From Patescibacteria group bacterium (GTDB taxonomy: Bacteria > Patescibacteriota > Patescibacteriia > UBA9934 > GWF2-40-263): a DNA stretch of 40,847 nucleotides. The DNA lies in contig SCSL01000040.1 in NCBI GenBank assembly GCA_004298405.1, positions 1 to 40,847 on the forward strand, given 5' to 3'. Positions 2,765 to 25,100 of the stretch are shown here, piece by piece; position 1 is the first letter of the stretch, and the number at the start of each line of letters is the position of its first letter. The translations under genes and the position numbers were made by a program. Below the pieces are notes generated by a model, which worked only from the letters and a program-made list of their open reading frames with translations, was not told the origin of the DNA and ran no database searches.

Positions 2765-5008
2765 TTATTTAACGTCTTGCTCGGTTTTCGTCATCTCACA
2801 CAGTGCCTCCACGTCTTTTTCCAATTTCTGGAAAGAATAGTCCACCATTCCCTTTTCCACTTGCTCTGGCGTAAAGACCTTATGGAGATCTGGTTCTGAC
2901 AAAAAGGAACCAACGGGGCTTTCACCTTCCTCAAGCGTTCCCGCAAAGGAATAATCAGAACCATCAACCGTGAACCGCGTCTTTTTTCCCACAGCAAGTT
3001 CTGGTGATACTTTTGTCCGAATCTTCTGTTCCCCTTTTCGAATATTGATTCTTCCCCCATCTTCAAGCGACACTTCGATCGTCGTGTACAGCTCCGCGGG
3101 CCTTGCATCCTCAGTTTCTGCGGCCGGTTCTGCGTCTGCTTCAGCTGGAGGCATTTCTACATGGAGTGGACGTGGGACGCGAGGTGACAAGTAGCCGATC
3201 TTTTTTGGTGTTATTGGTTTGGCTCCTTTCAAGTCTGGTGCACCGTCAAGCAAATGGAAGTAGTCGAAGATCGCCCTCACTTTGGCTCGATCTGCTTGAT
3301 CCACCTGCTTGAGATAGATGTCGATCTTTAATTTGATCCATTCGGAAAACGACTCAACCTGAAATGCCTGGTTCTGTTTTTGCAAGCGATCCTTAAATCC
3401 CTGCATCCAACTCTTAATCTCACCAAGCGTGATGGTAGAAGATGACAGTGTCAATAATTCGCCTGTACTCGCATCAAGGGTGATATTACCATCCGAGTCC
3501 TCTACAAAACGCACGGCATTTGTAGGAATACTCTCTGAAGATTGGTTTCCGTAAATAAAACTGTTCTGCAATGTCTTAACCGCATTGGCCAAACGCCAAA
3601 GCGTGCTGTGTCGTGGATCCGCTCCATCCTCGATCAATACATCCTTAGCCACAACCACACGACCATCCGGCAGCGTTACTTTTTCCGCGTCTGCGAGTTC
3701 ATGTTTGACGTAGGCCGGCGTCAACTCTTTTTCTGCAATGGGGATATGCTTGTTCTCATCCAGAAGCGCCCCGAGCATAAACTCGTATAGCTCTGGACTC
3801 TGCGCCGACTGGTCAGGATAGTCTACGATAATTTCCGCAATTTCGCGACGCATGGCTGGATCAACAGCACGACGGTCTGGGTAACGTGTGCCGACCGGAT
3901 TCGTCGTCCAAATAGCGGCTGCACCTGGGAGAACGGGATGGCCATAAAAATCGTCTCCTGGCCCCTTTTGGCGAGCTTTTTTAATGATTGTATACGCTTT
4001 TGATCCAAGACGACCTGCCTCGTCAAAACGAGCGACTCTTCCCTTGAGATGAGATGGTTTCTTCTCTCGTGAATTATTGAATCCAGTAAACGCTCTCATG
4101 AGTGGTCCATATTCTTGATAACTACCACCTGTCTCGCTATCAATAGCTGTGTCCATGATTAATTGCTTCTCACCCGTGGTCGAAACACAGTCCACTTCCG
4201 TGGGTGGACTATTTGTAAGCTCCAAAGCGGCCGCATCAGCTTGATCAGACTTCCCTGTTCCTGCTTCCCCAATCAGAACCGGCCAGCGGCCATTTTGCAG
4301 AGCCGCCACAGTATCCGTATGGATTTTTTGTCTGCTTGGGAGCCAAACGAATCCTTTTTTCAATTGATCACGATACTCAACAAGTGTCTCGAATTGAAAG
4401 GCCGCAGCAATATCTGTGTTTTCAGCTGTAGGATGAACCTTTTCAAGATTGAGCTGCTTCATGTTTTCCCGTTGGGTCTTAAGCATGAGCAATCGATTCG
4501 CCAGACGTTCTGCCTTGGACTTCGCCGCTGAAATGTTCGATTTTCCTTCGACCGTCCTTAAAAACAATGCCTGTTCTACCTTTTTGAATTCCTCTTCCAG
4601 ACCTTCAATTTGTTCATTCAGGTGCTTCCATGTTTTTCCAAGATCAGACATGCGATATGATTTGGTATCTACTCGAGCCTCTGAATATGTCTTTAAGAAA
4701 AGGTCTTTTGTTTCTCTATCCTCAAACAACACCTTAATCTCGGTAATCAAATCCGCATTTACTCCAGCCTTCTTGTCGGTCACATAAGCCATGACCTTTT
4801 CATACAAAATATCGGCCTTTTCTCGGGGAGTCCGCGATCTTGACTCAGCATTTGGAGAAGATTGATACGTTGCTCGAATCTCTGCTTCTACTTCCGGATC
4901 ACTTTCATGACCCGCGAGAATTTTGCTCTCGATATACCGTAAAATGGCCGATGCTTTCTTTTCGAGCTCAGGGTTAAATTCTCCACGCGATACTCTTTCA
5001 GGAGCCAT
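2765..5008 (-). CDS. Large AAA+ ATPase with one AAA_5 (MoxR/CbbQ/NorQ/McrB-like) module and long N- and C-terminal extensions
   Basis: 747-aa ORF with Walker A GEAGTGKS (res 247-254), Walker B VARFDEAG (325-332), sensor-1 IWTTNP (366-371) and DPAMRRE (383-389). The N-terminal ~215 aa are coiled-coil-like and the C-terminal ~350 aa are unassigned. Confidence 0.75.
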   Translation of the reverse strand: MAPERVSRGEFNPELEKKASAILRYIESKILAGHESDPEVEAEIRATYQSSPNAESRSRTPREKADILYEKVMAYVTDKKAGVNADLITEIKVLFEDRETKDLFLKTYSEARVDTKSYRMSDLGKTWKHLNEQIEGLEEEFKKVEQALFLRTVEGKSNISAAKSKAERLANRLLMLKTQRENMKQLNLEKVHPTAENTDIAAAFQFETLVEYRDQLKKGFVWLPSRQKIHTDTVAALQNGRWPVLIGEAGTGKSDQADAAALELTNSPPTEVDCVSTTGEKQLIMDTAIDSETGGSYQEYGPLMRAFTGFNNSREKKPSHLKGRVARFDEAGRLGSKAYTIIKKARQKGPGDDFYGHPVLPGAAAIWTTNPVGTRYPDRRAVDPAMRREIAEIIVDYPDQSAQSPELYEFMLGALLDENKHIPIAEKELTPAYVKHELADAEKVTLPDGRVVVAKDVLIEDGADPRHSTLWRLANAVKTLQNSFIYGNQSSESIPTNAVRFVEDSDGNITLDASTGELLTLSSSTITLGEIKSWMQGFKDRLQKQNQAFQVESFSEWIKLKIDIYLKQVDQADRAKVRAIFDYFHLLDGAPDLKGAKPITPKKIGYLSPRVPRPLHVEMPPAEADAEPAAETEDARPAELYTTIEVSLEDGGRINIRKGEQKIRTKVSPELAVGKKTRFTVDGSDYSFAGTLEEGESPVGSFLSEPDLHKVFTPEQVEKGMVDYSFQKLEKDVEALCEMTKTEQDVK

Positions 5009-5078
5009 AGGAATTAGGTTATTGAGTTTATAAGGCGAAAATTAGATGTATATGTTCTTTGTACGCACACTAAAAATA

Positions 5079-7736
5079 TCAAACCCGCCTAAATTCAGCA
5101 ATCGTGCTCTCAATCACTGCCTTGGCGCTTTCTTTCGCGCGAGCCGGAAAGAGACGGATCGCCTCGGCAACAAGATGTTTAGCAACGATCGCTGGCAGAT
5201 CGTCGATGGTCTTTGCAATATCTCCACGACTGTATGGCGTATTATAAATCACAGGCACGGTACTTGCCGTCTCCGTGAGACCAATCCCCACAACAACGGC
5301 TCCAAGTTTCCCAAGCGCCTCAGCATATTCCTGCACTTTGGATGGACTGTCCGGTCCTCCATCTGAACACGCAACGACGAGTCGCAGACGTTTTTTCATC
5401 GAAACACCCTTTTTTTCTAATGCTTGCTCATCAAGAATTTGTCCATAAATATAGTTGAGCGCCTCCACATCCCCGTTACTATAACCTTGATCCGTAAGAC
5501 TGTGCCATAGCCTCACTTTGTCCTGTGGTAAAAATTTTGGAGATAATGGCTTGTCGAGATCTATATCCTCTTCTCCTGAACCTCGAAAGGAAATCCCCTC
5601 TGTCCTGACGGATAATGATTCCTCACTGGGAATTCCCGCTCGCTCGAGCGCCCGTTGAAAGCGATGAAGGGAGGAAAAAATAAGATACTCCGCCCGTCGT
5701 TGCATCTTCCAAAGTTCCTCGCCCTCGACGGTAGAGCTCATTGAGCCGGATTTGTCGCCAATAATATAGAGATCAAACCCACCAATGGACGGCTCCACAT
5801 CTTCCTCATCCTCAATTCGCTCGCGTGAAACCGGGTCGCTGTCTCCAGATGAGATGCCAATCTTGTGTCGAACAATTTCTTCTATCCCCTCACCGCCTTC
5901 CGCTTTCCGAACCGGACTGTCATATTCTTCCACAACAACTTTTCGCGACTCAACAATAGCATTAAACAACCGCGAGAGGACGTCGACGATACGCTTTCCA
6001 TTGGGAAGACGCGTATCCTCGGCAACATCAATCTCTTTGACAATCTGACGTGCTTCCTTCAGTTCAATGCCGGTCACTCTAGAGAGCTCTCGTTCCTCCC
6101 GTGTATAGCTTAGTTGTTCTTTTTTCTCCGCCAGTTCCTTGCGCAGAGCCTCCAACTTCTCATCACTGATTCGCTTCGCCTCTTGTTTGCCATAATCGCC
6201 GGGGACTTTTTGTTGAGAACCCTTTGTTTGCTCTTCTTCAAGGTTTGGATCTCCCGCAGGAGTCGCATCGATCCGTTCCCATCGGAGCGTTGTTTCATCC
6301 CACACTTCACTCCAAGCATGTCCCGTACCGGAATGAATTTCTGAAGCACCCGTCGCATTCTTGCCCTTCACGCTATGACCGACGACTTGACGAGTGGCAA
6401 TATTTAATTGCGCGCACAATGCGGCAAAATACGTGTTGGACACATCACAGTCAGCCATTTGATGTGTGTCGATGGATCCAAAATATCCGCGAGGATCAGA
6501 ATCGTAAATCGCGTTAAGTGAGCTGTCGTTTGAATAGGTCAAGTGCTGCTGTGTATAAGCCGCAAGCGCCCATGCCTTGGCAAGCTTCGTTTTCTTGCTC
6601 GAACGGATCTTGGCAATGAACTGTTGCGTTTCTTCTGAAAACTGAACGGGCATGTTTGGCACCTTGACCTTGGCGCGATCAACCGGCCCGTGTATTTTTT
6701 GCGAAATCGGGGCAAAGACAACTTTCACCTCAACGATTCCAGTGCCCTGCACCATGATAACAACGTCTCCATTTTGATCCTGTTGTAAAACGTAAGGAAA
6801 CGCACATTCGACTTTTGAAATTCCGTGCGTGTACGGACTCGGGACGCTCACCCATTGGTTGGCGTGCAACTCCGAGTGAACTGTAAAGTTGATTCTCCCC
6901 TTTTTTTTGTCCTCGTTTTCACTCAGGGGAACCATCTGGACGTCATGATACTCATAGGAGGGCTCGACCCAGGTATTGCGTCTTGCATCCCACACGGACA
7001 ATGATTGTTCTCGAAAATATCCTCCATACGCTGGGAAGATCGTCCAAAAAGCGGGGGCACGCTCCCCTTCTTTCAGCCGATCCATTTCATCCATGCTTGG
7101 CTTGCTTTCGTTTCTGCGTGAAGGTGGATTCTTTGATTGCCCGTTCAACTTTTCCTGACGAGCTTTCCTCACATCGTCGGGCATCAGATTCCCCTCACGC
7201 TTATCCAATGCACGCCGGCCGGCGAGGTATCCTTCAAAACGCGTGTCGAGGCGGTTGAGTTTCACCTCCCATGATTCCGTTGTTGATGTGAGAACATCCA
7301 AATCGCCTGATTCGATTAAATCAGCAAGTTTTACTCTCGTTTCCTCGAACTTCGGTTCGTAGGCGTTCCCTCGCAACTCAGAAATAACCCCTCGATACAA
7401 GTCGGCTACGCGTGGAGAAAATGCCCTGCTTCTCAACTCGGCCTCATCAAGCAGTCGGCTCTTTTCCTCTTCTTTTTCGCTATCCGGAAATGGTGAACGA
7501 TTAACCGAATCGATATCTTCAAACACTTGATAAAAACTTGGAAACCGATGTGCATACAACTTGGCACGCACATCAATAAAATCCTCGACCGTTTCAAGGG
7601 CGGCGGCCGCATCTTCAAAACTCTCGCCCAAAAGAGCGGCTTCATGAGACCGTTCAAGAACACTTGCTGTGTGGAGCGTCTCGCTGACTTTGGGCGCTTC
7701 AACAGGAGGAACAAACCCTTCCGGAGTTTCTCTCAT
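5079..7736 (-). CDS. Transglutaminase-like (Cys-His-Asp) domain fused to a C-terminal von Willebrand A domain
   Basis: 885-aa ORF. The TGase core is ADC(430)DVSNTYFAALC ... GH(473)AWSEVW ... RID(490)ATP. A Glu/Lys coiled coil follows. The vWA MIDAS is D661-K-S-G-S665, with SDGG at 791-794 downstream. No signal peptide or TM segment is seen. Confidence 0.8.
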   Translation of the reverse strand: MRETPEGFVPPVEAPKVSETLHTASVLERSHEAALLGESFEDAAAALETVEDFIDVRAKLYAHRFPSFYQVFEDIDSVNRSPFPDSEKEEEKSRLLDEAELRSRAFSPRVADLYRGVISELRGNAYEPKFEETRVKLADLIESGDLDVLTSTTESWEVKLNRLDTRFEGYLAGRRALDKREGNLMPDDVRKARQEKLNGQSKNPPSRRNESKPSMDEMDRLKEGERAPAFWTIFPAYGGYFREQSLSVWDARRNTWVEPSYEYHDVQMVPLSENEDKKKGRINFTVHSELHANQWVSVPSPYTHGISKVECAFPYVLQQDQNGDVVIMVQGTGIVEVKVVFAPISQKIHGPVDRAKVKVPNMPVQFSEETQQFIAKIRSSKKTKLAKAWALAAYTQQHLTYSNDSSLNAIYDSDPRGYFGSIDTHQMADCDVSNTYFAALCAQLNIATRQVVGHSVKGKNATGASEIHSGTGHAWSEVWDETTLRWERIDATPAGDPNLEEEQTKGSQQKVPGDYGKQEAKRISDEKLEALRKELAEKKEQLSYTREERELSRVTGIELKEARQIVKEIDVAEDTRLPNGKRIVDVLSRLFNAIVESRKVVVEEYDSPVRKAEGGEGIEEIVRHKIGISSGDSDPVSRERIEDEEDVEPSIGGFDLYIIGDKSGSMSSTVEGEELWKMQRRAEYLIFSSLHRFQRALERAGIPSEESLSVRTEGISFRGSGEEDIDLDKPLSPKFLPQDKVRLWHSLTDQGYSNGDVEALNYIYGQILDEQALEKKGVSMKKRLRLVVACSDGGPDSPSKVQEYAEALGKLGAVVVGIGLTETASTVPVIYNTPYSRGDIAKTIDDLPAIVAKHLVAEAIRLFPARAKESAKAVIESTIAEFRRV

Positions 7737-7786
7737 AGATGTGAAATCCTCTGATTGTGCCTGGATGAATTGACGATACTAAGAAG

Positions 7787-7815
7787 AGTTTATCCACTTT
7801 ATTCTGGTTGTGCAA
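7787..7815 (-). promoter_or_regulatory. Candidate sigma70-type promoter for the TGase-vWA/AAA module
   Basis: Minus strand reads TTGCAC-N17-TAAACT, about 50 nt upstream of the ATG at 7736. It is a sequence match only. Confidence 0.25.
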
Positions 7816-7928
7816 CAGAGTTATTCACTTTAGCCTGGTGGTTTATCCTACTGGAGGTAATCGAGGCATCATCGCAGTGCCGCAGTTGCAATCTCATTCC
7901 GTTGGTCCTTACACGTCTCTTGTTAGAA

Positions 7929-8703
7929 TTAGGAAAATTTTCGAACGGAGGCGATACCGAGGTGTCTGAGCTGAACGCTGTCGTCCCAGTAGTAGATACT
8001 GAGACCGCCCATATCGAAGCCCCCGACGCTGATGTGGTCGCCGTCCAAGTCGACATCGCTAGTGCGGACGTCTATCGCCCCGAACAGACGCTCCCCCGTG
8101 GCGAGGAGTGTGTAGGATCATCGTGTAGATGACCTGTCTCGCTGAGGGAATCTCCTCAATCTCTGGGTCGATGAGCGATTGCTGATCGCTCCAATTCCTA
8201 GAGAAACTATCTTCAACAGCGCTTTTGTGGATGAGCCGCCAACAAGCATCTTGGGTGCGTTTGGCAAAGTCTTTACCCCTTACCTCGAGCATTGAATGTC
8301 TGTGAAACGCACCTATATACTTCTGTTCCAAGTCCAGGATCGATGTTCCGATGTCTGCGATAAGGACGTGTGTGTCGGCACACTCCCGGAGGGTTTCAAG
8401 AGAAAATGGGATGGTAGCAAGCGCTTCTTTTTGCTCGTGGGTTAGGATACCCAAATGTTCTTCAACCTGGGAGATCCCTAGGAAGTTCCTACCCATAATC
8501 TCAGGGGCAAGTGAGGTATTGACTCTTTCTTGAAGTGCTTGGGTCTTTTCTGAAAGTCCTCGTTTGAGTCCTTGAGCCTTCAAAATGTCCTCAGACTTCC
8601 CCAAGGAAATCGCCAAGTCATACGCAACACCAAACTCTTGCTTGAGGGAACGGATTTCCTCGAGCGAAGCCTGGGCACTTAGGCAGGTTGATGAGTCGGG
8701 CAT
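7929..8703 (-). pseudogene. Orphan protein, paralog of 27908-28960; the reading frame is interrupted and needs a +1 shift between 8062 and 8117
   Basis: The 214-aa ORF (8059-8703) stops at TAG. The next frame, open from 8117 to TAA 7929-7931, encodes ...DVDLDGDHISVGGFDMGGLSIYYWDDSVQLRHLGIASVRKFS. This matches the paralog C-terminus ...DSDGDPHVFSVGRDDDGSWLYSLW...FVFRLRKS. A G5 run (C5 on the plus strand, 8093-8097) lies in the switch window. Confidence 0.55.
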
Positions 8704-8720: not shown

Positions 8721-9518
8721 TCACAGTAGCAGAAGAATCACGACGCCGACAAACACACGGAAAATAGCTAGCTTACTGAAACTATATCGTTTTAGAAACT
8801 GGAGAAGGAATCGCACCGTGATAAACGCCGAGATCATGGCTACGGCGAATCCCGCCGTAAGAGGAAGAAAGGCGATGGTCTCATCACCACGAACCACACT
8901 CCCAAGCCCGAAGAAGCCAGCCGCGGCGATGGTCGGAATCGAAAGCAAAAACGAAAAGCGTGCGGCGGTCTCTCGAGAAAGTCCTGTGGCGAGTCCAGCC
9001 GTCATGGTGATTCCTGAACGTGAAGTTCCTGGAATGATCGCAATCATCTGAGCGAGTCCAATCAAAATGGCACGTTTGAGGCCAACGCCTTGTGGTCGAT
9101 CTTTTGTTTCCTTCGTACGACGATCCACAAAGTAGAGAACGCTTCCCCACACGATAAATGACCACGCCACGATCTCTACGGAGCGAAACTCAATCCTAAA
9201 AACCACCTGAAAAAGGAAGCCAACTAAAAGCACCGGAATCGTCGCCAGAGCAATCCAGATTGCGAGCTGTCTCCACGCCATGGCTACCTCGTCCTTTGAC
9301 GGAATGAGCAACGCAATGGTCATTGCCCTTACTTCGCTCCACAAAATCGTAACGATCGCGACTAATGTCGCGATATGCAAGAATGCATCGAACGCCAAAC
9401 TCTGGACTTCCCATCCAAATACTTTCGGGACAAGAATCAAAAACCCTGAACTTGAAATCGGTAAAAACTCCGTAATCCCTTGAACCAGTCCAAGGATAAT
9501 CGCTTGTGTGACGGTCAT
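8721..9518 (-). CDS. uppP: Undecaprenyl-diphosphatase UppP/BacA
   Basis: 265-aa polytopic membrane ORF. It starts MTVTQAIILGLVQGITEFLPISSSGFLIL and later contains PGTSRSG; both are UppP signatures. Confidence 0.93.
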   Translation of the reverse strand: MTVTQAIILGLVQGITEFLPISSSGFLILVPKVFGWEVQSLAFDAFLHIATLVAIVTILWSEVRAMTIALLIPSKDEVAMAWRQLAIWIALATIPVLLVGFLFQVVFRIEFRSVEIVAWSFIVWGSVLYFVDRRTKETKDRPQGVGLKRAILIGLAQMIAIIPGTSRSGITMTAGLATGLSRETAARFSFLLSIPTIAAAGFFGLGSVVRGDETIAFLPLTAGFAVAMISAFITVRFLLQFLKRYSFSKLAIFRVFVGVVILLLL

Positions 9519-9521
9519 ACA

Positions 9522-11528
9522 TCAATCAAAGCGAATCGTCTGGCCTGTATGCAACGTGCCGGTCTGTTCCTGCGGAGGACGTGGTTGAGTCGGTTGTGAC
9601 AATGGAGGTACGGGCGGTGCTGGGCTCTTTTTTTTCTTGCGCTTACGTTTCTTTTTCTCTTCTTCTTGATTCTCGGTTGATACCGGTCTTGGCGCAACAG
9701 ATTTTTGACCTGTCTCTTCCCGACGCTTGGCTCGAATTTTTTCAAGACAACTCTCACAATAGAGTGGTCGAGATGGATCAAGTTTTACACCGGCAGAAAA
9801 CGCCTTCCCACAATCGGAACAGGTGTAACTGAAAGACTCGGTTCGAGGAACACTCCTGCGTGGTGGCTCAGGAAGAGGTTTTTTTTCGACCGGCTCCGTG
9901 ATTCGCGGTGGAACCGTTACTGGTTTCACAAGCGACCCAAGGCTAATCGATGGTTCATCTGGGAGCTTTTCATCCTTGTCCTCTCCCTGAGGTCTCGCGG
10001 GTCGTTCGATTCTTTCTGGAATCTTCACATCTCTTCCCCCCTTTTTTCCTTTCCGTTCCTCACGCACGATCGCAATGCAATCATCGCAATAGATCGGTCG
10101 AGAGCGATCAAGTTCGACTGGTAACACAACCTCTTTTTCGCACCGGGAACATCTGTATTCAAACCGCGGCTTCTTGCTTTCCTTTGCCGCTTTTTTCTTT
10201 TCCGCCGCTTCCTGCAGGAGCGTGTCCATATCCGCATCCTCCATTCCACTCCAAGTAAGAATCTTCGCCTCGATTTCTGCACGAGGCCTTGCGTATCGTT
10301 CACGAGAAATTTTAATCACCTTTTCTCCGGAGTGCGTTGTTTGAGAAATCGGAGGGAGCGTGATGGCCGAGAATGGTTGACTTGTAACACCATCAATAAG
10401 AAGCTTGATGTAAATATTGTATTTTGGAAGATTGATAATATCTTCAGGAGTAAATCGCGGCATGAACTCCGCCTCCATAAACATCGCATCAGGAGAACCC
10501 ACGCGGAACGTAATAATCGTCCCCACGTTCCCAAAGACCGCGTCACGGACTTCTTCTGTCAGTTGCGCGATGTATTGGTGAGCCATCGTCAGACATAAAC
10601 GATATTTCCGCGCTTCGGAAAGAATGCTTGCAAATGATTCGACCGCAAAATTTTGGAACTCATCTACATAGAGATAAAAATCTTTTCGTTCGTGTTCTGG
10701 CGTATCAACACGTTCCATGGCCGCGAGCTGCATTTTTGTGATGAGTAATCCTCCAAGAAGCCGTGAGTTGTCTTCTCCAATACGGCCTTTTGATAAATTG
10801 ATGATGAAAATCTTTTCCGTATCCATGATCTCGCGGACATTAATCGAAGACTTCACTTGCGCAACAATATTGCGAATGACGACCGCAGACAGGAATTGAC
10901 CGATCTTATTTTGAATCGGCGCCACCGCCTCCTGGGCGTATTTCTCATTGTAGGAAGCAAACTCAACCAACCAGAACTGCTTCACGACCGGATCCTTCAC
11001 ATTCCCAACGATCCGTTTGCGGAAATCCGCATCTGACAACAACCGGTTGATTCCCAGCAACGTCTGGCCGGGCGTATCCAAAAGGGCCAACAGCGTATTG
11101 TTCAAGATGTACTCCATGCGGCTGGACCACATATTCTCCCAAATCTTTTGGAAGACTCCCATCATTCCTGACACGACAAGATGCTTATGGGATTCACTCA
11201 CGGCTTCCAAGATATTGAAGCCGACAGGAAAATCCATGTCCGCGGGATTGAAATAGACCACATCATTCAGACGCCAACTTGGAATAAAATCGATGAGCTT
11301 CTCGGCGGTATCCCCGTGGGGATCCACATAGCAACACCCGTGACCCGCGTAGATGTCCGATAAAATATAATTCTCAAGCAGAACGGTTTTTCCCATCCCT
11401 GTCTTTCCAATCACATACACATGCCGGCGACGGTCGTCGGTTTTGATCCCAAACTTCGTCATCTGATTTCGGAAGTTGGTCTTAGCAAAGTAACTCACTT
11501 CGTTTTCGTGGTCGTGATTATAAGACAT
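9522..11528 (-). CDS. VirD4/TraD/TraG-like (type IV coupling protein-like) P-loop ATPase without a membrane anchor, with two C-terminal CxxC..CxxC zinc ribbons and a Lys/Pro-rich tail
   Basis: 668-aa ORF with Walker A GKTGMGKT (41-48) and Walker B FYLYVDEF (284-291), followed by RKYRLCLTMAHQYIAQL. The zinc ribbons are YRCSRCEKEVVLPVELDRSRPIYCDDC and YTCSDCGKAFSAGVKLDPSRPLYCESC. The tail contains KKKRKRKKKK. Confidence 0.8.
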   Translation of the reverse strand: MSYNHDHENEVSYFAKTNFRNQMTKFGIKTDDRRRHVYVIGKTGMGKTVLLENYILSDIYAGHGCCYVDPHGDTAEKLIDFIPSWRLNDVVYFNPADMDFPVGFNILEAVSESHKHLVVSGMMGVFQKIWENMWSSRMEYILNNTLLALLDTPGQTLLGINRLLSDADFRKRIVGNVKDPVVKQFWLVEFASYNEKYAQEAVAPIQNKIGQFLSAVVIRNIVAQVKSSINVREIMDTEKIFIINLSKGRIGEDNSRLLGGLLITKMQLAAMERVDTPEHERKDFYLYVDEFQNFAVESFASILSEARKYRLCLTMAHQYIAQLTEEVRDAVFGNVGTIITFRVGSPDAMFMEAEFMPRFTPEDIINLPKYNIYIKLLIDGVTSQPFSAITLPPISQTTHSGEKVIKISRERYARPRAEIEAKILTWSGMEDADMDTLLQEAAEKKKAAKESKKPRFEYRCSRCEKEVVLPVELDRSRPIYCDDCIAIVREERKGKKGGRDVKIPERIERPARPQGEDKDEKLPDEPSISLGSLVKPVTVPPRITEPVEKKPLPEPPRRSVPRTESFSYTCSDCGKAFSAGVKLDPSRPLYCESCLEKIRAKRREETGQKSVAPRPVSTENQEEEKKKRKRKKKKSPAPPVPPLSQPTQPRPPQEQTGTLHTGQTIRFD

Positions 11529-11536
11529 GTGTATTG

Positions 11537-13090
11537 TTAAATAGGTAGATTTGGAGGCACATACCCATCAGGCTCTTTTGTCAGTTTCTCTTTCAACGAC
11601 GGTTCATGCAACACGGGTGCGTGTGGATGTGGGAGGGTTTCAGGGAGCGGCTCGTCGCTCACCTCTGGAAAATCCATATGTGGAAGAGATAGCCCTTCCT
11701 GTTCTCTCTCGCTTTCTGGAGGGACATATCCAGGCAAAACCTCGTCTGAAAATGTGATAGGAAGTCCGGAGGGTGGTTCCGCACGCTTGGATTCGCTCTT
11801 TTTGACAAGGGGTGCCTTTATCGTCACAGGAGGAAAATGCCACAGAGTGGCTAACTCTTCAACATTCAAGACTATCGGATTTGCCCCGGCACCCCAGCTA
11901 CGTCCTTGATATCCAGACATGAGTCGATGTTGTTTTTTTGTGTACACCAAACGCATCCAAAAATAATCATCTTTAGGCACTTGTGGAATATAAAGGGTGA
12001 ACTTATTGAGATTGAGATTAGAAAACTGGTTCAGGACCCCTTTCACAATACTCGTACGTTCCACTTTGACAAACGCATTTTTGCGCGCCACATACAGCAC
12101 GCGAATTTTCACACCTAGTCCAATCTTGGAGGCCTTCCTCAGGACTGCCTCTGCTTCCTCCTTTTGGGCCAATGTTACCTTAAATGCCTTCCACTGGTCT
12201 TCTTCTTTTTTTTCCTCAGATTCTCCTAAAAGGCCGCTGACATCAAGACCAACCGCCTCCTGAATAAGACCGGCCGGCCAAGAAAGCGTTGACTCAAGGG
12301 CTCCAAGAAAAGCGCTCTTTTTTTGCTTATCTTCAACTCCATACAATTTATTCACAAATTTGATGCTCTTTTTCTGCCAGTCATTGCTCGAAGGCTGAAC
12401 CAACATCTGAATCCAAAAATGCTCTCCTGGACGCATCTTCCCCAATTGTTCAAGTGTGATGGATAACGGATCCTTAATTTCCTGTGAAATTCGGTCCTCA
12501 AAATCCAAGTGCGTCCGAATCGGGAACATATCGTCATTTTCGAGCGTCACCTCCCCACCCCACATTTCGTAATCGTCGTTCGGGTATTCGTTTGGAAATT
12601 TCTTTGCATAGTCTTCCACCTCAGAAATCTCCGCCTCCGGGTAATTGGCATAAATGCCTGCCTCAATCACATCACGGAACCGCGTCTGTGTCCTGACAAG
12701 AAACTGGATGTACCCTTCCGTTGAAATAATTTCAAATGAAAACACAGGGTGCAGTTTTCCATCAAACCATTTTTCTTTCCAGGTGATACTTGATTTTGTG
12801 GCATACAGCGACGCGAAGAGATTTTCAAATGCCTTCGGTGTCTGTTCGGTCATGCTGGGGACATCAATAGCCAAGACGGTGAATTTCAATTTTCCAACAT
12901 AGATGCCACGCCGGTAGTTGAGCCACATTTCGGTAAATCCCCATCCAAGAGTAATGACAATCGGGATCCACCCAAACCAAATCAGGAAATCATAAAGTAT
13001 GACATCAATGGGTTGATCGAAAAAAGAAGACGGGCTTTGAGCCAACCCTGTTACCTGACTGACAATGGGGATAGCTAAGAGCGCAAACAT
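11537..13090 (-). CDS. Membrane-anchored protein of unknown function, translationally coupled partner of the VirD4-like ATPase
   Basis: 517-aa ORF with N-terminal hydrophobic segments (MFALLAIPIVSQV.., ILYDFLIWFGWIPIVITLGWGF), a large soluble domain and a Pro/Glu-rich tail. Its stop is 8 nt before the next start. Confidence 0.7.
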   Translation of the reverse strand: MFALLAIPIVSQVTGLAQSPSSFFDQPIDVILYDFLIWFGWIPIVITLGWGFTEMWLNYRRGIYVGKLKFTVLAIDVPSMTEQTPKAFENLFASLYATKSSITWKEKWFDGKLHPVFSFEIISTEGYIQFLVRTQTRFRDVIEAGIYANYPEAEISEVEDYAKKFPNEYPNDDYEMWGGEVTLENDDMFPIRTHLDFEDRISQEIKDPLSITLEQLGKMRPGEHFWIQMLVQPSSNDWQKKSIKFVNKLYGVEDKQKKSAFLGALESTLSWPAGLIQEAVGLDVSGLLGESEEKKEEDQWKAFKVTLAQKEEAEAVLRKASKIGLGVKIRVLYVARKNAFVKVERTSIVKGVLNQFSNLNLNKFTLYIPQVPKDDYFWMRLVYTKKQHRLMSGYQGRSWGAGANPIVLNVEELATLWHFPPVTIKAPLVKKSESKRAEPPSGLPITFSDEVLPGYVPPESEREQEGLSLPHMDFPEVSDEPLPETLPHPHAPVLHEPSLKEKLTKEPDGYVPPNLPI

Positions 13091-13108
13091 ACGGATGAAA
13101 TGATTGTA

Positions 13109-13140
13109 CCAAAAAACTGGATATAGACCCAGTTTTTTGG
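13109..13140 (-). terminator. Perfect 12-bp palindrome (CCAAAAAACTGG-N8-CCAGTTTTTTGG) between secF and the 517-aa gene
   Basis: Inverted repeat read directly from the sequence. The stem is AT-rich with a flanking T-run inside one arm. It would mark the end of a secDF transcription unit. Confidence 0.45.
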
Positions 13141-13150
13141 TAGAAGATCC

Positions 13151-14047
13151 TTAGGACTTTCTATACAACTCCCATGTAACCAACAGCGGGCTGGCGAAAA
13201 AAATCGAGGAATAGGTTCCAACAGCAATGCCAATCATGAGCGCGAGTGCGAATGGTTGGGTTGACTCACCGCCAAAAAAGAACACGGCCGTAAGGGCAAG
13301 AAGTGTGGTGAGTGATGTGTTCACAGATCGTGTAAATGTTTCGCGAATGCTTCTCTCGACAACAACGGGAAAGTCTTCCCCTCTGTGCTGAAGAAGATTT
13401 TCTCGCGTTCGATCAAACACGACAACCGTATCTGAAATTGAGTACCCCAAGATGGTCAAAATCGCCGCCACGAATCCTGACCCGATCTCCCAATGATAGT
13501 ACTGACCCAAAAGAGCGAAGACACCCAGAGGGATAATCACATCGTGTGCCGCGCAGAGCACCGTTATCAGCCCATACTTCCACGAAGCAATGGGTTCGGA
13601 AACCTTGCGAAATGCCCATGAGATGTACAAACCGATCAAGAGCAGGGTTACAAGAACCCCGATGATCGATGAGCGACGAAGCTCAGAACCAACCGTTGGA
13701 CCAATCGAATCAAACCTCAGCTCGGTGAATTCACCAAACGTCTCCCTCAGCGTCGCAAGGGTTGCTTGATGCGTGGCTTCATCCTGCGCTTCTGAGCGAA
13801 GAATCAATTTTTGATTCTCGTCTGCTGACTGCACAGACAGACCTTTCAGAGAGGTCAGCACCTGCTTCACCTCCTGCGTGGGTGGCGCTCCTTGGGCAAA
13901 TTCAAGTTCGATGAGCGAACCCCCGGTGAAATCCGCACTGAACTTCAGTCCGAAGACGACAAGAAATCCAATACTCAAAAGGATGCTGATCGCGGATACG
14001 GCGAACCAGTATTTTCTCCACCCGACGAACGAAAAAGTTGATGTCAT
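13151..14047 (-). CDS. secF: Protein translocase subunit SecF
   Basis: 298-aa ORF with six-TM SecF topology and the motif FSADFTGGSLIELEF. It overlaps the secD stop by 4 nt. Confidence 0.92.
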   Translation of the reverse strand: MTSTFSFVGWRKYWFAVSAISILLSIGFLVVFGLKFSADFTGGSLIELEFAQGAPPTQEVKQVLTSLKGLSVQSADENQKLILRSEAQDEATHQATLATLRETFGEFTELRFDSIGPTVGSELRRSSIIGVLVTLLLIGLYISWAFRKVSEPIASWKYGLITVLCAAHDVIIPLGVFALLGQYYHWEIGSGFVAAILTILGYSISDTVVVFDRTRENLLQHRGEDFPVVVERSIRETFTRSVNTSLTTLLALTAVFFFGGESTQPFALALMIGIAVGTYSSIFFASPLLVTWELYRKS

Positions 14048-16107
14048 ACGTTTTTATTTCGAGAAAATCCGTAAAGCGTTGGGGACTGCACGGCGCGAAT
14101 CCCACGAAGACTTTTCATATAGACACGCGTGACCGTAATAGCCGTAAACAACGAAAGGAGCACGCCAACCGCGAGGGTGAGCGCAAATCCTCGGACAAAA
14201 CTTGAGGTGAAACTGTAGAGCACACACGCGGAAATAAGCGTAGTGAGATGTCCATCGCGAATAGGTGGCCAAGCTCGCTTAAATCCTTCGTCTACAGAAG
14301 AAACAAGATCTCGGCCTTTCCGGAATTCGTCTTTGATGCGTTCAAAGATCAGCACATTCGCGTCCACCGCAATCCCCAACGACAGAATCAATCCGGCAAT
14401 TCCCGAAAGCGTAACCGTCACGCCAAAGAGTCGATAGGCGGCCAGGTTCAATACCACGTAGAGACACAATGCCAGTGTTGCGAGAAGCCCTGGCAATCGA
14501 TACACAACGATCATGAAAAGCGCCACCAGAGCAAAACCAAGATAGGCGGCGGTCAAACTTTTCTCTAATGAGACGAGCCCAAGCGTTGGTCCCACGGTCT
14601 CCTGCGAAAGAAGCTCAACCGAAACCGGAAGCGCTCCCGCGTTGAGTCGCTGGGCGAGAAGCTTGGCTTCCTCAACCGTGAAGTCTCCCGTAATCACCGC
14701 CTTTCCTCCGTAAATGGCCTGTTGCACAACCGGCGTTGAGATGGCTTCCCCATCCAAGAAAATCGCCATAGGCTCACCAACATGACTTTCCGTCAAAGAC
14801 GCGAACAACTCTCCCCCTTCCGCATTAAACGTCAGGGCAACATACGGAGCCCCAGAACTCGGATCGAATTCCACGCCTGCGCGCTCAAGATGCTTTCCGG
14901 AAAGTTCGGTGTTTATCCAAGGCGACGCCTGCGGCACGACATCATAGATATCCGAGAGCGGCATGAGAATGCGTTGAATGGTGTATGCCGGCTCTGTGCG
15001 CTGATCACGTTTGTAGATGAGATGGTATCCAAATTCTGTTTCGACGACCGTAGAAATTTCACCAACTTCCAACGCCGCTGAGGCCAGGCCAAAAGAAGCC
15101 ACGTAATCCTGTGCGGTTGACCAACCTAAATCTCCAGAATTGGAAGTTGCCGATGGATCTGTTGAATACTGTTTTGCAAGATCAGCAAAATTCTCTGGGG
15201 TCGCTTGATCCTTTAGGCTATTGATTTGAACGGAGGCGTCCAAAGCAGAAACAGTACTGGTACAACCTGTTTTTCCTTCAAAACAAATCAAGATATGTGA
15301 GAGCAACATCTGAGTTTGTTCACTCGGATTGAGATACTTAAAGATGCTCACACCCTCCTCATTTTCCAACAAATTCCCGTTCACCTGTCCTGGTTGAACA
15401 CCTCGTTGCTCAATGAGCAACACATAATCCATGTAAAAAGAATCGACAGTGATATTCTCGAGGATCCCTTTGGTTGTTTCCTTGTTTCTCTCTGTGCTGA
15501 ATTCGGAAACGAGCGCATCAAAATCCTCACCGGCAAGTGCGCGATTGAGAACCACGTTCGCATCCGCACGTTCTTGCGTATTCAATGCCTCAAGCTGGGC
15601 CAGTTGCTCAGGTGTTGGATCTTCCTCCAGCTCCTCTCCTGGTTCCTTAAACTCGAGAACAGGCGTCTCTCCAATAAGCGCAATTGCCTCAGAGACATCC
15701 AAAACACCCGCCAGTTCAATAATGACCCGATACGTGCCACCCGTGGTCGTTGTTTGCACGACCGGTTCTGATACGCCAAACGCATTCACTCGTCGCTCAA
15801 TCACATCGCGGACCCCTTCCAGAGCGGTGAGACGATCCCCTTCTGGAATCTGAGACATATCTGCCTCATACACAAGGTGTGTGCCTCCTTGAAGATCCAA
15901 GCCCAATCGGAATGGTTCCTCACTCATGGTTGGTGGAAGCCAGCCGGTTTTTGCTTGTACTGTCTGGGCACCTCGATTCCAGATTCCCGGAAAATCATAC
16001 AGACCGATCACAAGTGTCGCGACGAGGGCCATGATCGCCACGAGTCTGGGTTTCCAGTTCTTTTGCTCGGTCTTCTTAATCTTTTTCTTGAGTTTCCATG
16101 TTTGCAT
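14044..16107 (-). CDS. secD: Protein translocase subunit SecD with a parvulin-type PPIase insertion in the periplasmic P1 region
   Basis: SecD motifs FRLGLDLQGGTHLVYEAD, the P1 base and a C-terminal six-TM block are present. The start is moved to ATG 16105-16107 (MQTWKLKKK.. before TM1). The insertion carries SHILI...YSTDPSATSNSGDLGW...EFGYHLIYK. Confidence 0.9.
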   Translation of the reverse strand: MQTWKLKKKIKKTEQKNWKPRLVAIMALVATLVIGLYDFPGIWNRGAQTVQAKTGWLPPTMSEEPFRLGLDLQGGTHLVYEADMSQIPEGDRLTALEGVRDVIERRVNAFGVSEPVVQTTTTGGTYRVIIELAGVLDVSEAIALIGETPVLEFKEPGEELEEDPTPEQLAQLEALNTQERADANVVLNRALAGEDFDALVSEFSTERNKETTKGILENITVDSFYMDYVLLIEQRGVQPGQVNGNLLENEEGVSIFKYLNPSEQTQMLLSHILICFEGKTGCTSTVSALDASVQINSLKDQATPENFADLAKQYSTDPSATSNSGDLGWSTAQDYVASFGLASAALEVGEISTVVETEFGYHLIYKRDQRTEPAYTIQRILMPLSDIYDVVPQASPWINTELSGKHLERAGVEFDPSSGAPYVALTFNAEGGELFASLTESHVGEPMAIFLDGEAISTPVVQQAIYGGKAVITGDFTVEEAKLLAQRLNAGALPVSVELLSQETVGPTLGLVSLEKSLTAAYLGFALVALFMIVVYRLPGLLATLALCLYVVLNLAAYRLFGVTVTLSGIAGLILSLGIAVDANVLIFERIKDEFRKGRDLVSSVDEGFKRAWPPIRDGHLTTLISACVLYSFTSSFVRGFALTLAVGVLLSLFTAITVTRVYMKSLRGIRAVQSPTLYGFSRNKNV

Positions 16108-16223
16108 AGTGGTAAAATAGTCGGGCGTAAGTGTAGGCGATGAAGCGCCCAAGAGCAAGTGGACAACCGTTGACGGGATCCACTGTGTGTGATCTGATGG
16201 GTTCTACCCAAAAGGAGGTGCGC

Positions 16224-25075: not shown

Positions 25076-25100
25076 ACATTTTGTTTTCGGCCCTCCCCCT

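What the first reader, a model, noticed from the sequence alone, without database searches (positions are those of the whole stretch)
9522..13090. Orphan split coupling-protein pair: membrane protein plus soluble VirD4/TraD-like ATPase, in an operon with uppP
The 668-aa ATPase has the VirD4/TraG layout: a P-loop, an all-alpha insertion, then FYLYVDEFQNF...RKYRLCLTMAHQ. It lacks the N-terminal TM helices that canonical coupling proteins use as a membrane anchor. The gene immediately upstream encodes a 517-aa protein with N-terminal hydrophobic segments and a large soluble domain of unknown fold, and its stop is 8 nt before the ATPase start. The ATPase is followed after 3 nt by uppP, and 17 nt later by the frameshifted orphan. 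A perfect 12-bp palindrome (13109-13140) separates this unit from secDF. No VirB4, VirB6, relaxase, pilin or conjugation gene is visible in the 40 kb. This suggests a minimal two-component translocation or anchoring machine that is not part of a mobile element. It may be linked to envelope lipid-carrier recycling.
Basis: partly seen in the sequence, partly recalled or inferred. Interest (0 to 1): 0.65.

Follow-up and report, generated by a model that had tools for sequence, protein, structure and literature searches.

The report
Two-gene coupling ATPase of Patescibacteria
Two adjacent genes in a Candidatus Uhrbacteria chromosome together encode a type IV secretion "coupling protein" that other microbes make as a single chain (membrane-anchored DUF8128 half plus soluble motor ATPase); it is a strongly conserved core gene pair, not part of a plasmid, and its cargo is unknown.

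Summary
On the minus strand lie a 517-aa membrane protein (13090-11537), a 668-aa TM-less VirD4/TrwB-type ATPase 8 nt later (11528-9522), then uppP. A hairpin separates this unit from secDF.

The 517-aa protein belongs to Pfam DUF8128. Profile-profile comparison shows the two genes are colinear with single-chain coupling proteins (T4CPs) of actinobacterial conjugative elements. DUF8128 aligns to their residues 58-381 (prob 97.5%). The ATPase aligns to 396-788 (prob 100%). Split versions also occur on a haloarchaeal plasmid and on Bacillota megaplasmids. So "split coupling protein" is correct.

In Patescibacteria the pair is chromosomal and vertically inherited. The genes are adjacent in 50 of 68 species-level loci, often next to secDF. 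The ATPase is more conserved than SecD/SecF (median 63.5% vs about 48%). Most copies carry a C-terminal zinc ribbon.

The uppP link is lineage-specific (7 of 68 loci). "Orphan/minimal machine" cannot be judged from 40 kb: 80% of Patescibacteria genomes encode a T4SS elsewhere, and T4CP genes lying far from virB4 were already reported in 2025.

I file it as a new variant of a known kind, of moderate interest. The open question is whether it serves the chromosomal T4SS or has been exapted as an independent translocase.

The parts
13107..13142 (-). 16-bp stem-loop in the secF/DUF8128 spacer, with a U-run in its 3' arm. It probably acts as the terminator of secDF.
   Evidence: RNA fold dG -21.6 kcal/mol, z -6.96, 0 of 200 shuffles as stable. 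Hairpin plus T-run at the same place in 9 of the 10 related spacers folded; L001 has a hairpin but no T-run.
13103..13111 (-). Extended -10 promoter-like element TGGTACAAT. Its last base lies 12 nt upstream of the ATG at 13090, so the leader is very short.
   Evidence: Read directly from the sequence. TGnTAnnnT was found near the DUF8128 start in 60 of 81 loci, against 33.7 expected from shuffles. Function is inferred.
11537..13090 (-). Gene for the 517-aa DUF8128 (PF26449) membrane protein, the N-terminal half of the split T4CP.
   Evidence: ORF. Precomputed PF26449 annotation and more than 1,200 homologues. 1,864 clusters at 50% identity. hhalign against fused actinobacterial T4CPs gives prob 97.5%, E 8.6e-12.
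12932..13009 (-). Transmembrane helix (aa 28-53). Inferred topology is N-out/C-in, which places the DUF8128 domain in the cytoplasm.
   Evidence: Hydropathy. AF2 helix 28-67. In the family, net charge is -1 before and +2 after the TM segment.
11816..12889 (-). Globular alpha/beta DUF8128 domain (aa 68-425), including the nearly invariant EELATLWHFP motif (aa 411-420, coordinates 11831-11860).
   Evidence: AF2 pLDDT about 80-90 over most of aa 68-425; two stretches, about aa 250-300 and aa 371-380, fall below 70. Invariant columns. Foldseek's top 7 hits are TrwK/VirB4 of R388, best E 2.9e-4 with TMq 0.32.
11756..11803 (-). KKSESKRAEPPSGLPI segment (aa 430-445). It corresponds to the DUF8128-to-ATPase junction of the fused T4CPs.
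   Evidence: Aligned to RAGARsVvPPxxIP just before the ATPase domain in actinobacterial proteins.
11540..11560 (-). C-terminal VPPNLPI peptide at the end of a disordered tail (aa 425-517). Candidate docking motif.
   Evidence: A motif of the PPxNLP type (first Pro often replaced) ends about 48 of 50 orthologues despite variable linkers. Tail pLDDT is below 50. Any docking role is inferred.
9522..11528 (-). Gene for the 668-aa soluble VirD4/TrwB-type T4CP ATPase.
   Evidence: Pfam and NCBIfam hits. PDB sequence hits to TrwB and DotL. Foldseek hits to DotL, TrwB and Cag-beta. hhalign against the C-terminal half of fused T4CPs gives prob 100%, E 3e-52.
11385..11408 (-). Walker A motif GKTGMGKT (aa 41-48).
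   Evidence: Invariant in alignment A3.
10575..10679 (-). Walker B region FYLYVDEFQNF (aa 284-294) through RKYRLCLTMAHQ (aa 307-318).
   Evidence: The core residues D289, E290, R307, K308, H317 and Q318 are invariant in A3. The region is covered by the TraG-D_C hit at aa 285-346.
10077..10151 (-). Zinc ribbon 1, CSRC-x17-CDDC (aa 460-484).
   Evidence: Pfam zf_Tbcl_2 at 2.1e-8 and TIGR04272. Nearly invariant in A3. 45 of 51 adjacent ATPases have at least one such ribbon.
9747..9821 (-). Zinc ribbon 2, CSDC-x17-CESC (aa 570-594).
   Evidence: A second copy is uncommon: 3 of 51 orthologues have two.
9525..9656 (-). Basic stretch KKKRKRKKKK (aa 625-634, coordinates 9627-9656) and conserved C-terminal GQxIxFD (aa 662-668, coordinates 9525-9545).
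8721..9518 (-). uppP (undecaprenyl-diphosphate phosphatase), co-oriented and 3 nt downstream. This is a lineage-specific neighbour, not a conserved part of the system.
   Evidence: Pfam BacA 2.9e-70. Present in only 7 of 68 related loci. Separated from the ATPase by a hydrolase gene in L001 and L003.

Best explanation
The two genes encode one type IV coupling protein (T4CP) made as two polypeptides.

The 517-aa DUF8128 protein is inserted in the membrane by an N-terminal helix. It exposes a roughly 360-aa alpha/beta domain and a flexible tail ending in PPNLP to the cytoplasm. The 668-aa protein is the VirD4/TrwB-type motor: a RecA-like nucleotide-binding domain, an all-alpha domain, and a tail with two zinc ribbons and a basic patch.

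The genes are transcribed together from their own extended -10 promoter just after the secDF terminator hairpin. Inferred: the ATPase is recruited to the membrane by the DUF8128 subunit, just as the same two modules are covalently joined in actinobacterial conjugative T4CPs. Inferred: it assembles as a ring and uses ATP to receive and push a macromolecular substrate (DNA or protein) at the membrane.

In Patescibacteria the pair is a vertically inherited core chromosomal module. Most likely it serves the domesticated monoderm-type T4SS that most of these bacteria encode elsewhere in the genome.

Shown: homology, colinearity with fused T4CPs, conserved adjacency, strong purifying selection, intact catalytic motifs. 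Inferred: physical interaction, topology, oligomeric state, substrate, and partnership with the T4SS.
For: T4CP identity of the ATPase:
- Pfam TrwB_AAD_bind, TraG-D_C and T4SS-DNA_transf all score above gathering thresholds.
- PDB sequence hits are TrwB and DotL.
- Foldseek's top 22 hits are DotL (3.4e-9), TrwB and Cag-beta.

Split-gene homology:
- Homologues of the N-terminal 412 aa of an Embleya plasmid T4CP carry PF26449 (DUF8128), fused in the same chain to PF10412, PF01935, PF12696 or PF02534.
- That Embleya T4CP sits in a PrgI / VirB4-like / T4CP / Replic_Relax / NlpC-P60 cluster.
- hhalign of DUF8128 against the fused proteins gives prob 97.5%, E 8.6e-12, at template positions 58-381. 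The ATPase gives prob 100%, E 3e-52, at positions 396-788.
- The same split arrangement occurs on Haloterrigena plasmid pHTS138 (prob 93.1%). It also occurs on the Pontibacillus (prob 98.9%, E 1.4e-17) and Priestia megaplasmids.

Conserved adjacency and operon structure:
- The ATPase lies directly downstream in 50 of 68 species-level loci.
- The median spacer is about 15 nt, and the genes often overlap.
- A terminator-like hairpin and an extended -10 box lie upstream.

Selection:
- The ATPase core has median 63.5% identity, against 47.7% for SecD and 48.7% for SecF in the same loci.
- Catalytic motifs are invariant.

Precedent and context:
- pIP501 TraI+TraJ is a published two-protein T4CP (PMC4981023, PMC7434980).
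- T4SS genes are present in 80% of Patescibacteria, and T4CP genes usually lie far from virB4 (PMC12102498).
Against: - No T4SS, relaxase or pilin gene is in the window. TrwK found no tblastn match within 8 kb of the pair in any of 84 related loci, though this is a weak test.
- T4CP homologues occur in more Patescibacteria genomes (2,918) than VirB4 does (2,417).
- The T4CP homologue of S. epibionticum was reported non-essential while the T4SS was essential (PMC12102498).
- This degree of ATPase conservation is unusual for plasmid T4CPs.
- In 18 of 68 loci the ATPase is not adjacent.
- No interaction between the two proteins has been computed or measured.
- The ATPase model has low confidence (pLDDT 58).
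Confidence: 0.55

Rival explanations
1. An exapted, T4SS-independent housekeeping translocase. The DUF8128-anchored hexamer would act on its own or with another channel such as ComEC. It would move DNA, or another polymer, across or along the membrane, for example during DNA uptake and nucleotide scavenging. The zinc-ribbon and basic tail would bind nucleic acid.
For: - T4CP homologues are found in 2,918 of 3,035 genomes against VirB4 in 2,417. Only 148 of 5,713 lie near virB4, and the authors state that exaptation cannot be ruled out (PMC12102498).
- The ATPase is more conserved than SecD/SecF.
- The zinc ribbon is retained in 45 of 51 orthologues, and this copy also has a basic patch.
- The synteny is with housekeeping genes, and no T4SS gene is nearby.
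- A Sigma70_r4 + HARE-HTH DNA-binding protein is encoded directly upstream of DUF8128 in 34 of 80 loci.
Against: - No direct evidence exists for any substrate.
- Genomes that lack VirB4 may simply be incomplete MAGs.
- Every characterised member of this protein family works with a T4SS.
- The closest homologous one-chain versions sit inside conjugative T4SS clusters.
- A comEC mutant already abolishes transformation in S. epibionticum without implicating a T4CP (PMC12857230).
Confidence: 0.3
2. An accessory of the Sec protein-export pathway. The pair would be functionally tied to SecDF, for example as an ATP-driven delivery or quality-control step for exported proteins.
For: secF lies within 2.5 kb upstream in 41 of 67 loci, across lineages in which DUF8128 identity falls to about 33%. 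secA is also nearby in several loci and in the window.
Against: - A terminator-like hairpin and a separate promoter lie between secF and the pair.
- In 34 of 80 loci an unrelated gene is inserted between them.
- Outside Patescibacteria the homologous modules sit in conjugation clusters, not next to sec genes.
- The synteny can be explained by inherited gene order.
Confidence: 0.05
3. One reading: an anchoring or translocation machine linked to undecaprenyl-phosphate (lipid-carrier) recycling through uppP.
For: uppP starts 3 nt after the ATPase stop in the window. Uhrbacteria relatives keep uppP close by.
Against: uppP is in only 7 of 68 loci. In L001 and L003 a hydrolase gene intervenes. No such link exists in Falkow-, Buchanan-, Magasanik- or Kerfeld-bacteria or outside the phylum.
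Confidence: 0.03
4. A decaying remnant of an integrated conjugative element, with no current function.
For: The ancestry of the module is conjugative. Degraded copies exist, such as the Pontibacillus ATPase fragments.
Against: - Both ORFs are intact with invariant catalytic motifs.
- The pair is very strongly conserved over hundreds of species.
- Base composition matches the surrounding DNA.
- There is no integrase, relaxase or repeat boundary.
Confidence: 0.02

Closest known systems
One-chain DUF8128-T4CP proteins of actinobacterial conjugative elements. The Embleya sp. NBC_00896 plasmid protein WP_331738717 (812 aa) is one example. Streptomyces, Frankia and Nonomuraea homologues are others.
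   Same: Both modules are homologous and in the same order: TM region, DUF8128 domain, then the VirD4-type ATPase. The ELAxxxHxP motif and the [KR]-rich PPxx[IL]P junction are conserved.
   Different: There the protein is a single polypeptide inside a T4SS cluster with PrgI, a VirB4-like ATPase, a Replic_Relax protein and a cell-wall hydrolase. Here it is two genes in a housekeeping region with no T4SS gene in view, plus a zinc-ribbon tail. ATPase identity is about 32%.
The two-protein coupling protein TraI/TraJ of plasmid pIP501 (and pRE25). This is the 'T4CP lacking TMD' subfamily in the review's T4CP classification (PMC7434980).
   Same: It works the same way: a soluble VirD4-like ATPase is encoded immediately after a membrane protein that is thought to recruit it to the membrane (PMC4981023, PMC7434980).
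   Different: TraI has only 143 aa and is not homologous to DUF8128 (hhalign prob 0.2%). TraI/TraJ are plasmid tra-operon genes with a relaxase.
VirD4-type T4CP homologues of Patescibacteria catalogued by Quinonero-Coronel et al. 2025 (PMC12102498).
   Same: These are probably the same genes: chromosomal T4CP homologues in about 96% of genomes, almost always far from virB4, with possible exaptation noted.
   Different: That survey, in the passages retrieved for its T4CP terms, does not describe a DUF8128 partner gene, split/fused colinearity, secDF synteny, a zinc-ribbon tail or the level of conservation. 'DUF8128' occurs in none of the papers searched.
Canonical T4CPs TrwB (R388), DotL and Cag-beta.
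   Same: The nucleotide-binding domain, all-alpha domain and motifs match. These are the top structural and sequence matches.
   Different: Canonical proteins carry their own two-helix N-terminal membrane anchor and no DUF8128 domain. Sequence identity is only 14-18%.
N-terminal domain of VirB4 (TrwK of R388).
   Same: The seven best Foldseek matches of the DUF8128 model are TrwK chains (best E 2.9e-4, prob 1.0). In VirB4 this region contacts the membrane-anchoring subunit VirB3 (PMC12102498).
   Different: TM-score is only about 0.3, and there is no profile-level similarity to TrwK or to an actinobacterial VirB4-like protein (prob 0.3% or less). The matched residue range was not reported. This is a lead only.

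Membership tests
Type IV coupling protein (VirD4/TraD/TraG/TrwB family) | P-loop nucleotide-binding domain with Walker A and Walker B motifs | tested here: met
   GKTGMGKT (aa 41-48) and YVDEF (aa 287-291). The P-loop residues (G41, K42, T43, G44, G46, K47) and the VDEF core are invariant among 32 orthologues.
Type IV coupling protein (VirD4/TraD/TraG/TrwB family) | All-alpha domain inserted in the NBD, with overall fold like TrwB | tested here: met
   Pfam TrwB_AAD_bind covers aa 27-343. The AF2 model has a helical block at aa 112-223. Foldseek's top 22 hits are DotL, TrwB and Cag-beta; HerA ranks 23, the VirB4 C-terminal domain ranks 27, and no FtsK appears in the 50 hits listed. The model has low confidence (pLDDT 58).
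Type IV coupling protein (VirD4/TraD/TraG/TrwB family) | Match to curated family models above threshold | tested here: met
   PF10412 scores 40.2 bits (cut-off 20.5), PF12696 scores 25.9 (22) and PF02534 scores 20.9 (20.1). NCBIfam equivalogs (TraD, CD1115, TrbC) are hit only around the P-loop and far below their cut-offs. So it belongs to the superfamily but to no curated equivalog.
Type IV coupling protein (VirD4/TraD/TraG/TrwB family) | N-terminal transmembrane anchor in the same polypeptide | tested here: not met
   No hydrophobic segment in the 668-aa protein. The anchor is supplied by the upstream DUF8128 gene, as in the recognised 'T4CP lacking TMD' subfamily.
Type IV coupling protein (VirD4/TraD/TraG/TrwB family) | Encoded with, or functionally coupled to, a T4SS (VirB4) and a relaxase or substrate | tested here: not met
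   There are none in the 40.8-kb window, and TrwK finds no tblastn hit in the flanks of 84 related loci. The rest of the genome could not be examined.
Type IV coupling protein (VirD4/TraD/TraG/TrwB family) | Hexamerisation, ATPase activity and DNA or substrate binding | not testable with these tools
   These need biochemistry.
DUF8128 (Pfam PF26449) | Match to the family model | tested here: met
   The database's precomputed annotation lists PF26449.1 for the window protein and nearly all homologues. The local Pfam copy returned no match for any DUF8128 protein, presumably because it lacks this model.
DUF8128 (Pfam PF26449) | Homology to the N-terminal domain of fused T4CPs that carry the same Pfam domain | tested here: met
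   hhalign of A2 against A4 gives prob 97.5%, E 8.6e-12 over 318 columns. The Pontibacillus protein gives 98.9% and the Haloterrigena protein 93.1%.
Two-protein T4CP of pIP501 (TraI + TraJ) | Soluble T4CP ATPase encoded directly after a membrane-protein gene | tested here: met
   8-nt spacer, same strand. Adjacent in 50 of 68 loci.
Two-protein T4CP of pIP501 (TraI + TraJ) | Membrane partner homologous to TraI | tested here: not met
   hhalign of A2 against pRE25 TraI (143 aa) gives prob 0.2%. The arrangement works alike but is not the same family.
   No FtsK_SpoIIIE or DUF87 Pfam hit at E 0.01 or below. In Foldseek, HerA appears only from rank 23 (E 2e-4) and no FtsK in the 50 hits listed.
VirB4 (as the origin of the DUF8128 domain) | DUF8128 domain homologous to the VirB4 N-terminal domain | tested here: inconclusive
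   Foldseek's top 7 hits are TrwK (best E 2.9e-4, TMq 0.32). hhalign against TrwK, an Embleya VirB4-like protein and the Haloterrigena 1,099-aa 'conjugal transfer protein' gives prob 0.3% or less. A PDB profile search finds nothing.

The most novel reading that the evidence does not exclude
The DUF8128 + ATPase pair would be a T4SS-independent core motor of Patescibacteria. It would be a coupling protein captured from a monoderm conjugative element and exapted as a housekeeping translocase. One candidate role is the ATP-driven step of DNA uptake and nucleotide scavenging, using its zinc-ribbon and basic tail to grip nucleic acid. This would explain two things: it is kept more conserved than SecDF, and T4CP homologues are found in more genomes than VirB4.

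A second, compatible novelty concerns evolution. If the DUF8128 domain really is a VirB4-type N-terminal domain, this T4CP class would preserve the ancestral VirB4-like two-domain layout and link the VirB4 and VirD4 families.
Probability: 0.25. Interest if true: 0.75.

Novelty: new variant of a known kind. Interest (0 to 1): 0.45.

Why it matters
Patescibacteria make up a large share of bacterial diversity and depend on host cells, and their envelope machines are central to that lifestyle. A published survey noted that nearly all of them keep a coupling-protein gene away from the T4SS, and left its role open.

This analysis adds four things:
- A defined partner gene (DUF8128).
- A clear evolutionary origin: the one-chain DUF8128-T4CPs of monoderm and archaeal conjugative elements.
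- Evidence of very strong purifying selection.
- Conserved accessory features: a zinc ribbon, a C-terminal PPxNLP peptide and the pair's own promoter.

Together these turn an 'orphan ATPase' into a concrete two-subunit machine that can be tested genetically in the cultivable Saccharibacteria systems. They also assign a first functional context to a large domain of unknown function: 1,864 clusters at 50% identity.

Tried and rejected
1. Sequence-level tests of the VirB4 N-terminal-domain likeness all failed, so it stays a fold-level lead. hhalign of the DUF8128 profile against TrwK, an Embleya VirB4-like protein and a haloarchaeal conjugal-transfer protein gave prob 0.3% or less. A profile search of PDB sequences found nothing. 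Pfam scans of 33 family members at E up to 10 found nothing relevant.

2. Homology of the membrane partner to pIP501/pRE25 TraI is rejected.

3. A fused-chain AlphaFold prediction of the pair was prepared with paired sequences but not submitted. The second structure job went to the ATPase instead, and that model had low confidence because the alignment was too shallow (pLDDT 58).

4. The taxonomic breadth of distant DUF8128 relatives could not be established. The cluster look-up returned no names, and the searches list only the best hits.

5. The uppP functional link is rejected on phyletic grounds.

6. FtsK replacement was considered and set aside. The ATPase does not group with FtsK. Two papers on the Saccharibacteria strain TM7x mention FtsK, but they were not opened, so whether Saccharibacteria have their own FtsK was not checked.

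7. The generic promoter scan found no -35/-10 promoter for the pair. The extended -10 element was found only by reading the spacers of related loci.

8. The C. botulinum plasmid 839-aa candidate fusion had no Pfam hits in the local copy and was not pursued.

Full report
**What is there**

The window is a chromosomal contig of a Candidatus Uhrbacteria (Patescibacteria/CPR) bacterium. The best homologues of both proteins come from Uhrbacteria MAGs. The surrounding genes are housekeeping: secD with a PPIase insert, secF, secA, murB, murC, glyA, folD, dnaB, recR, mnmA and a mraY-like gene.

On the minus strand the gene order is as follows:
- secF, then a 60-nt spacer.
- A 517-aa ORF (13090-11537), then 8 nt.
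- A 668-aa ORF (11528-9522), then 3 nt.
- uppP (9518-8721), then 17 nt.
- A 214-aa orphan ORF.

Base composition is uniform across the region.

**The ATPase**

It has no hydrophobic segment. It passes the Pfam gathering thresholds for TrwB_AAD_bind, TraG-D_C and T4SS-DNA_transf. NCBIfam conjugative TraD, CD1115 and TrbC models hit only the P-loop region and score far below their cut-offs.

The only solved structures found by sequence are TrwB and DotL. An AlphaFold model was of low confidence (pLDDT 58). Its 22 best Foldseek matches were nevertheless all coupling proteins: DotL at 3.4e-9, then TrwB and Cag-beta. HerA appears at rank 23, the VirB4 C-terminal domain at rank 27, and no FtsK appears in the 50 hits listed.

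- Two CxxC-x17-CxxC zinc ribbons (aa 460-484 and 570-594).
- A KKKRKRKKKK stretch.
- A conserved GQxIxFD C-terminus.

**The 517-aa protein**

It belongs to Pfam DUF8128 (PF26449), according to the database's precomputed annotation. The local Pfam copy returned no match, presumably because it lacks that model.

The family is large: 1,864 clusters at 50% identity with E of 1e-3 or better.

An AlphaFold model is confident for most of residues 22-425. It shows one long N-terminal helix whose hydrophobic part is aa 28-53. Then comes an alpha/beta domain built of ferredoxin-like beta-alpha-beta units, followed by a disordered tail.

Across orthologues there is usually one N-terminal TM segment, with net charge -1 before it and +2 after it. 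By the positive-inside rule this places the globular domain in the cytoplasm. This topology is an inference.

The extreme C-terminus carries a conserved motif of the PPxNLP type in about 48 of 50 orthologues, despite highly variable linkers.

**The two genes are one coupling protein**

A tblastn search of the ATPase against plasmids found relatives in Actinobacteria, Bacillota, haloarchaea and Sulfolobus.

On an Embleya plasmid the homologue is an 812-aa protein. Its ATPase domain starts at residue 413. It sits in a typical monoderm conjugation cluster: PrgI/VirB3-like, VirB4-like ATPase, T4CP, Replic_Relax, NlpC/P60.

Searching with its first 412 residues returned 99 proteins. Most are annotated PF26449, and many carry PF10412, PF01935, PF12696 or PF02534 in the same chain.

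Independent profile-profile comparison confirms colinearity:
- The Patescibacteria DUF8128 alignment matches positions 58-381 of the fused proteins (prob 97.5%, E 8.6e-12).
- The Patescibacteria ATPase alignment matches positions 396-788 (prob 100%, E 3e-52).

The split form also exists elsewhere:
- On Haloterrigena plasmid pHTS138, a 399-aa protein directly upstream of a 1,034-aa T4CP matches DUF8128 (prob 93.1%).
- On a Pontibacillus megaplasmid, a 426-aa DUF8128 protein (prob 98.9%, E 1.4e-17) precedes fragments of a T4CP gene.
- Priestia megaterium has the same pair.

The 'large soluble domain of unknown fold' is the regular N-terminal module of this T4CP class.

**Conservation in Patescibacteria**

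A scan of one genome per species found at least 564 loci. The best 80 are all Patescibacteria: Uhr-, Falkow-, Buchanan-, Magasanik- and Kerfeld-bacteria and 'Parcubacteria group'. Some of these MAGs are mislabelled Gammaproteobacteria.

- The ATPase lies directly downstream on the same strand in 50 of the 68 loci with enough sequence.
- The median spacer is about 15 nt, and many pairs overlap.
- The ATPase core is strikingly conserved: median 63.5% identity (range 58-92%). In the same loci DUF8128 has 36%, SecF 48.7% and SecD 47.7%.
- 45 of 51 orthologues keep at least one zinc ribbon.
- secF lies within 2.5 kb upstream in 41 of 67 loci.
- uppP is present in only 7 of 68 loci. In close relatives a hydrolase gene separates it from the ATPase.
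- In 18 loci the ATPase is not adjacent. Those neighbours include guaA/guaB or glycosyltransferases.

**Transcription unit**

The palindrome folds into a 16-bp stem at 13107-13142 (dG -21.6 kcal/mol, z -6.96). TGGTACAAT, an extended -10 element, begins in the 3' arm of this stem and ends 12 nt before the ATG.

The same layout, hairpin then T-run then TGnTAnnnT, recurs in related spacers. The motif occurs near the DUF8128 start in 60 of 81 loci, against 33.7 expected.

This suggests secDF terminates here and the pair has its own promoter with a very short leader. This is inferred. The generic promoter scan found nothing.

**Comparison with what is known**

- T4CPs that lack a TM domain and depend on a membrane protein encoded just upstream are a recognised subfamily. 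Its example is pIP501 TraI/TraJ (PMC4981023, PMC7434980). TraI is a 143-aa protein unrelated to DUF8128, so the resemblance is functional rather than familial.
- Quinonero-Coronel et al. 2025 (PMC12102498) reported 5,713 VirD4-type homologues in 2,918 of 3,035 Patescibacteria genomes, with only 148 near virB4.
- The same survey found VirB4 in 2,417 genomes.
- It also noted that the S. epibionticum homologue was not essential, so 'exaptation cannot be ruled out'.
- Wang et al. 2023 found no recognisable coupling protein inside the essential T4SS cluster.
- The term DUF8128 occurs in no paper in the library.

What is new here is the partner gene, its origin, the degree of conservation, and the accessory motifs.

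**The VirB4 lead**

The seven best Foldseek matches of the DUF8128 model are TrwK/VirB4 chains of R388 (best E 2.9e-4, prob 1.0). The TM-score is only about 0.3, and the tool does not report which residues match. No sequence-profile test supports the relationship. It remains an interesting lead that this T4CP class may retain a VirB4-like N-terminal domain.

**Mechanism and rivals**

The best-supported explanation (confidence about 0.55) has three parts:
- The DUF8128 subunit anchors the ATPase at the membrane and docks it.
- The ATPase ring receives and drives a macromolecular substrate.
- The most likely partner is the domesticated monoderm-type T4SS that most Patescibacteria encode elsewhere.

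The main rival (about 0.3) is a T4SS-independent exapted translocase, for instance for DNA uptake. Four observations favour it:
- The excess of genomes with a T4CP homologue over genomes with VirB4.
- The very high conservation.
- The zinc-ribbon and basic tail.
- A Sigma70_r4 + HARE-HTH gene directly upstream of DUF8128 in 34 of 80 loci.

Links to Sec export (0.05), to uppP (0.03) or to a decaying mobile element (0.02) are poorly supported.

**Verdict**

This is a new variant of a known kind: a split, domesticated DUF8128-type coupling protein. It is of moderate interest because its existence in Patescibacteria has been reported at survey level. The architecture is also visible in domain databases, but the partner gene, the conservation and the open question of function are worth following up.

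Noticed in passing
L015:6446-7672 and 33 other related loci; absent from the window: A roughly 400-aa protein with Sigma70 region 4 and a HARE-HTH domain is encoded directly upstream of the DUF8128 gene. It is on the same strand and often lies between secF and DUF8128. It occurs in 34 of 80 loci, including loci where the ATPase is not adjacent. It may be a DNA-binding partner or regulator of the module.
   Followed up: partly
window 14044-16158 (-): SecD carries a PpiC-type peptidyl-prolyl isomerase (Rotamase) domain inserted between SecD_1st and the P1 head. The same fusion is present in Uhrbacteria relatives (L001, L003).
   Followed up: no
window 2765-8703 (-): In relatives, uppP is directly followed by the HD-domain gene (L005 8849-9667, then 9677-10981). 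In this genome about 6 kb is inserted between them. The insert holds the 214-aa orphan ORF, an abutting 85-aa ORF in another frame (a possible frameshift), an 885-aa transglutaminase-core protein and a 747-aa AAA_5 (MoxR-like) ATPase.
   Followed up: partly
window 13103-13111; spacers of L001, L003, L005-L009, L032, L034, L037: Extended -10 boxes (TGnTAnnnT) lie only 7-22 nt upstream of the start codon. Most have no obvious Shine-Dalgarno sequence. This suggests near-leaderless mRNAs in these Patescibacteria.
   Followed up: partly
L010 8448-8807, L011 9416-9793, L068 805-1020, L074 15998-17335 (-), L077 14265-15548 (-): Some genomes carry a second T4CP-like paralogue close to the pair, about 42% identical to the window's ATPase where identity was measured (L074, L077). 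This fits the roughly two T4CP homologues per genome reported in the literature.
   Followed up: no
L088 6001-8382 (Priestia megaterium pFDU301A); L086 7060-9127 (Pontibacillus): The Priestia ATPase gene is interrupted by about 900 nt between the Walker B region and the C-terminal part, which could be an intein or an insertion. The Pontibacillus copy is broken into several frames and looks like a pseudogene, while its DUF8128 gene is intact.
   Followed up: no
L087 5953-7140 (Sulfitobacter mediterraneus plasmid): The closest plasmid relative of the ATPase (41.7% identity) is a 395-aa T4CP-like protein in an alphaproteobacterium. It has no upstream DUF8128 gene and is flanked by a recombinase and transposases.
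   Followed up: partly
L009, L026-L028, L033, L035, L041, L042, L045, L050, L054, L058, L061, L062, L065, L078: Many MAGs titled 'uncultured Gammaproteobacteria bacterium' (SRP and binchicken co-assemblies), plus one 'Candidatus Binatia' (L014), carry typical Patescibacteria loci. Their taxonomic labels look wrong.
   Followed up: no
window 24080-25216 and 25101-26480 (-): The murC and murB ORFs as listed overlap by 116 nt. The murB start is probably further downstream than the first in-frame start codon.
   Followed up: no
window 9525-9545 (-): The ATPase ends in a conserved GQxIxFD peptide after a long low-complexity Pro/Lys-rich tail. Together with the PPxNLP end of the DUF8128 protein, both subunits end in short conserved peptides that may be docking motifs.
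   Followed up: no
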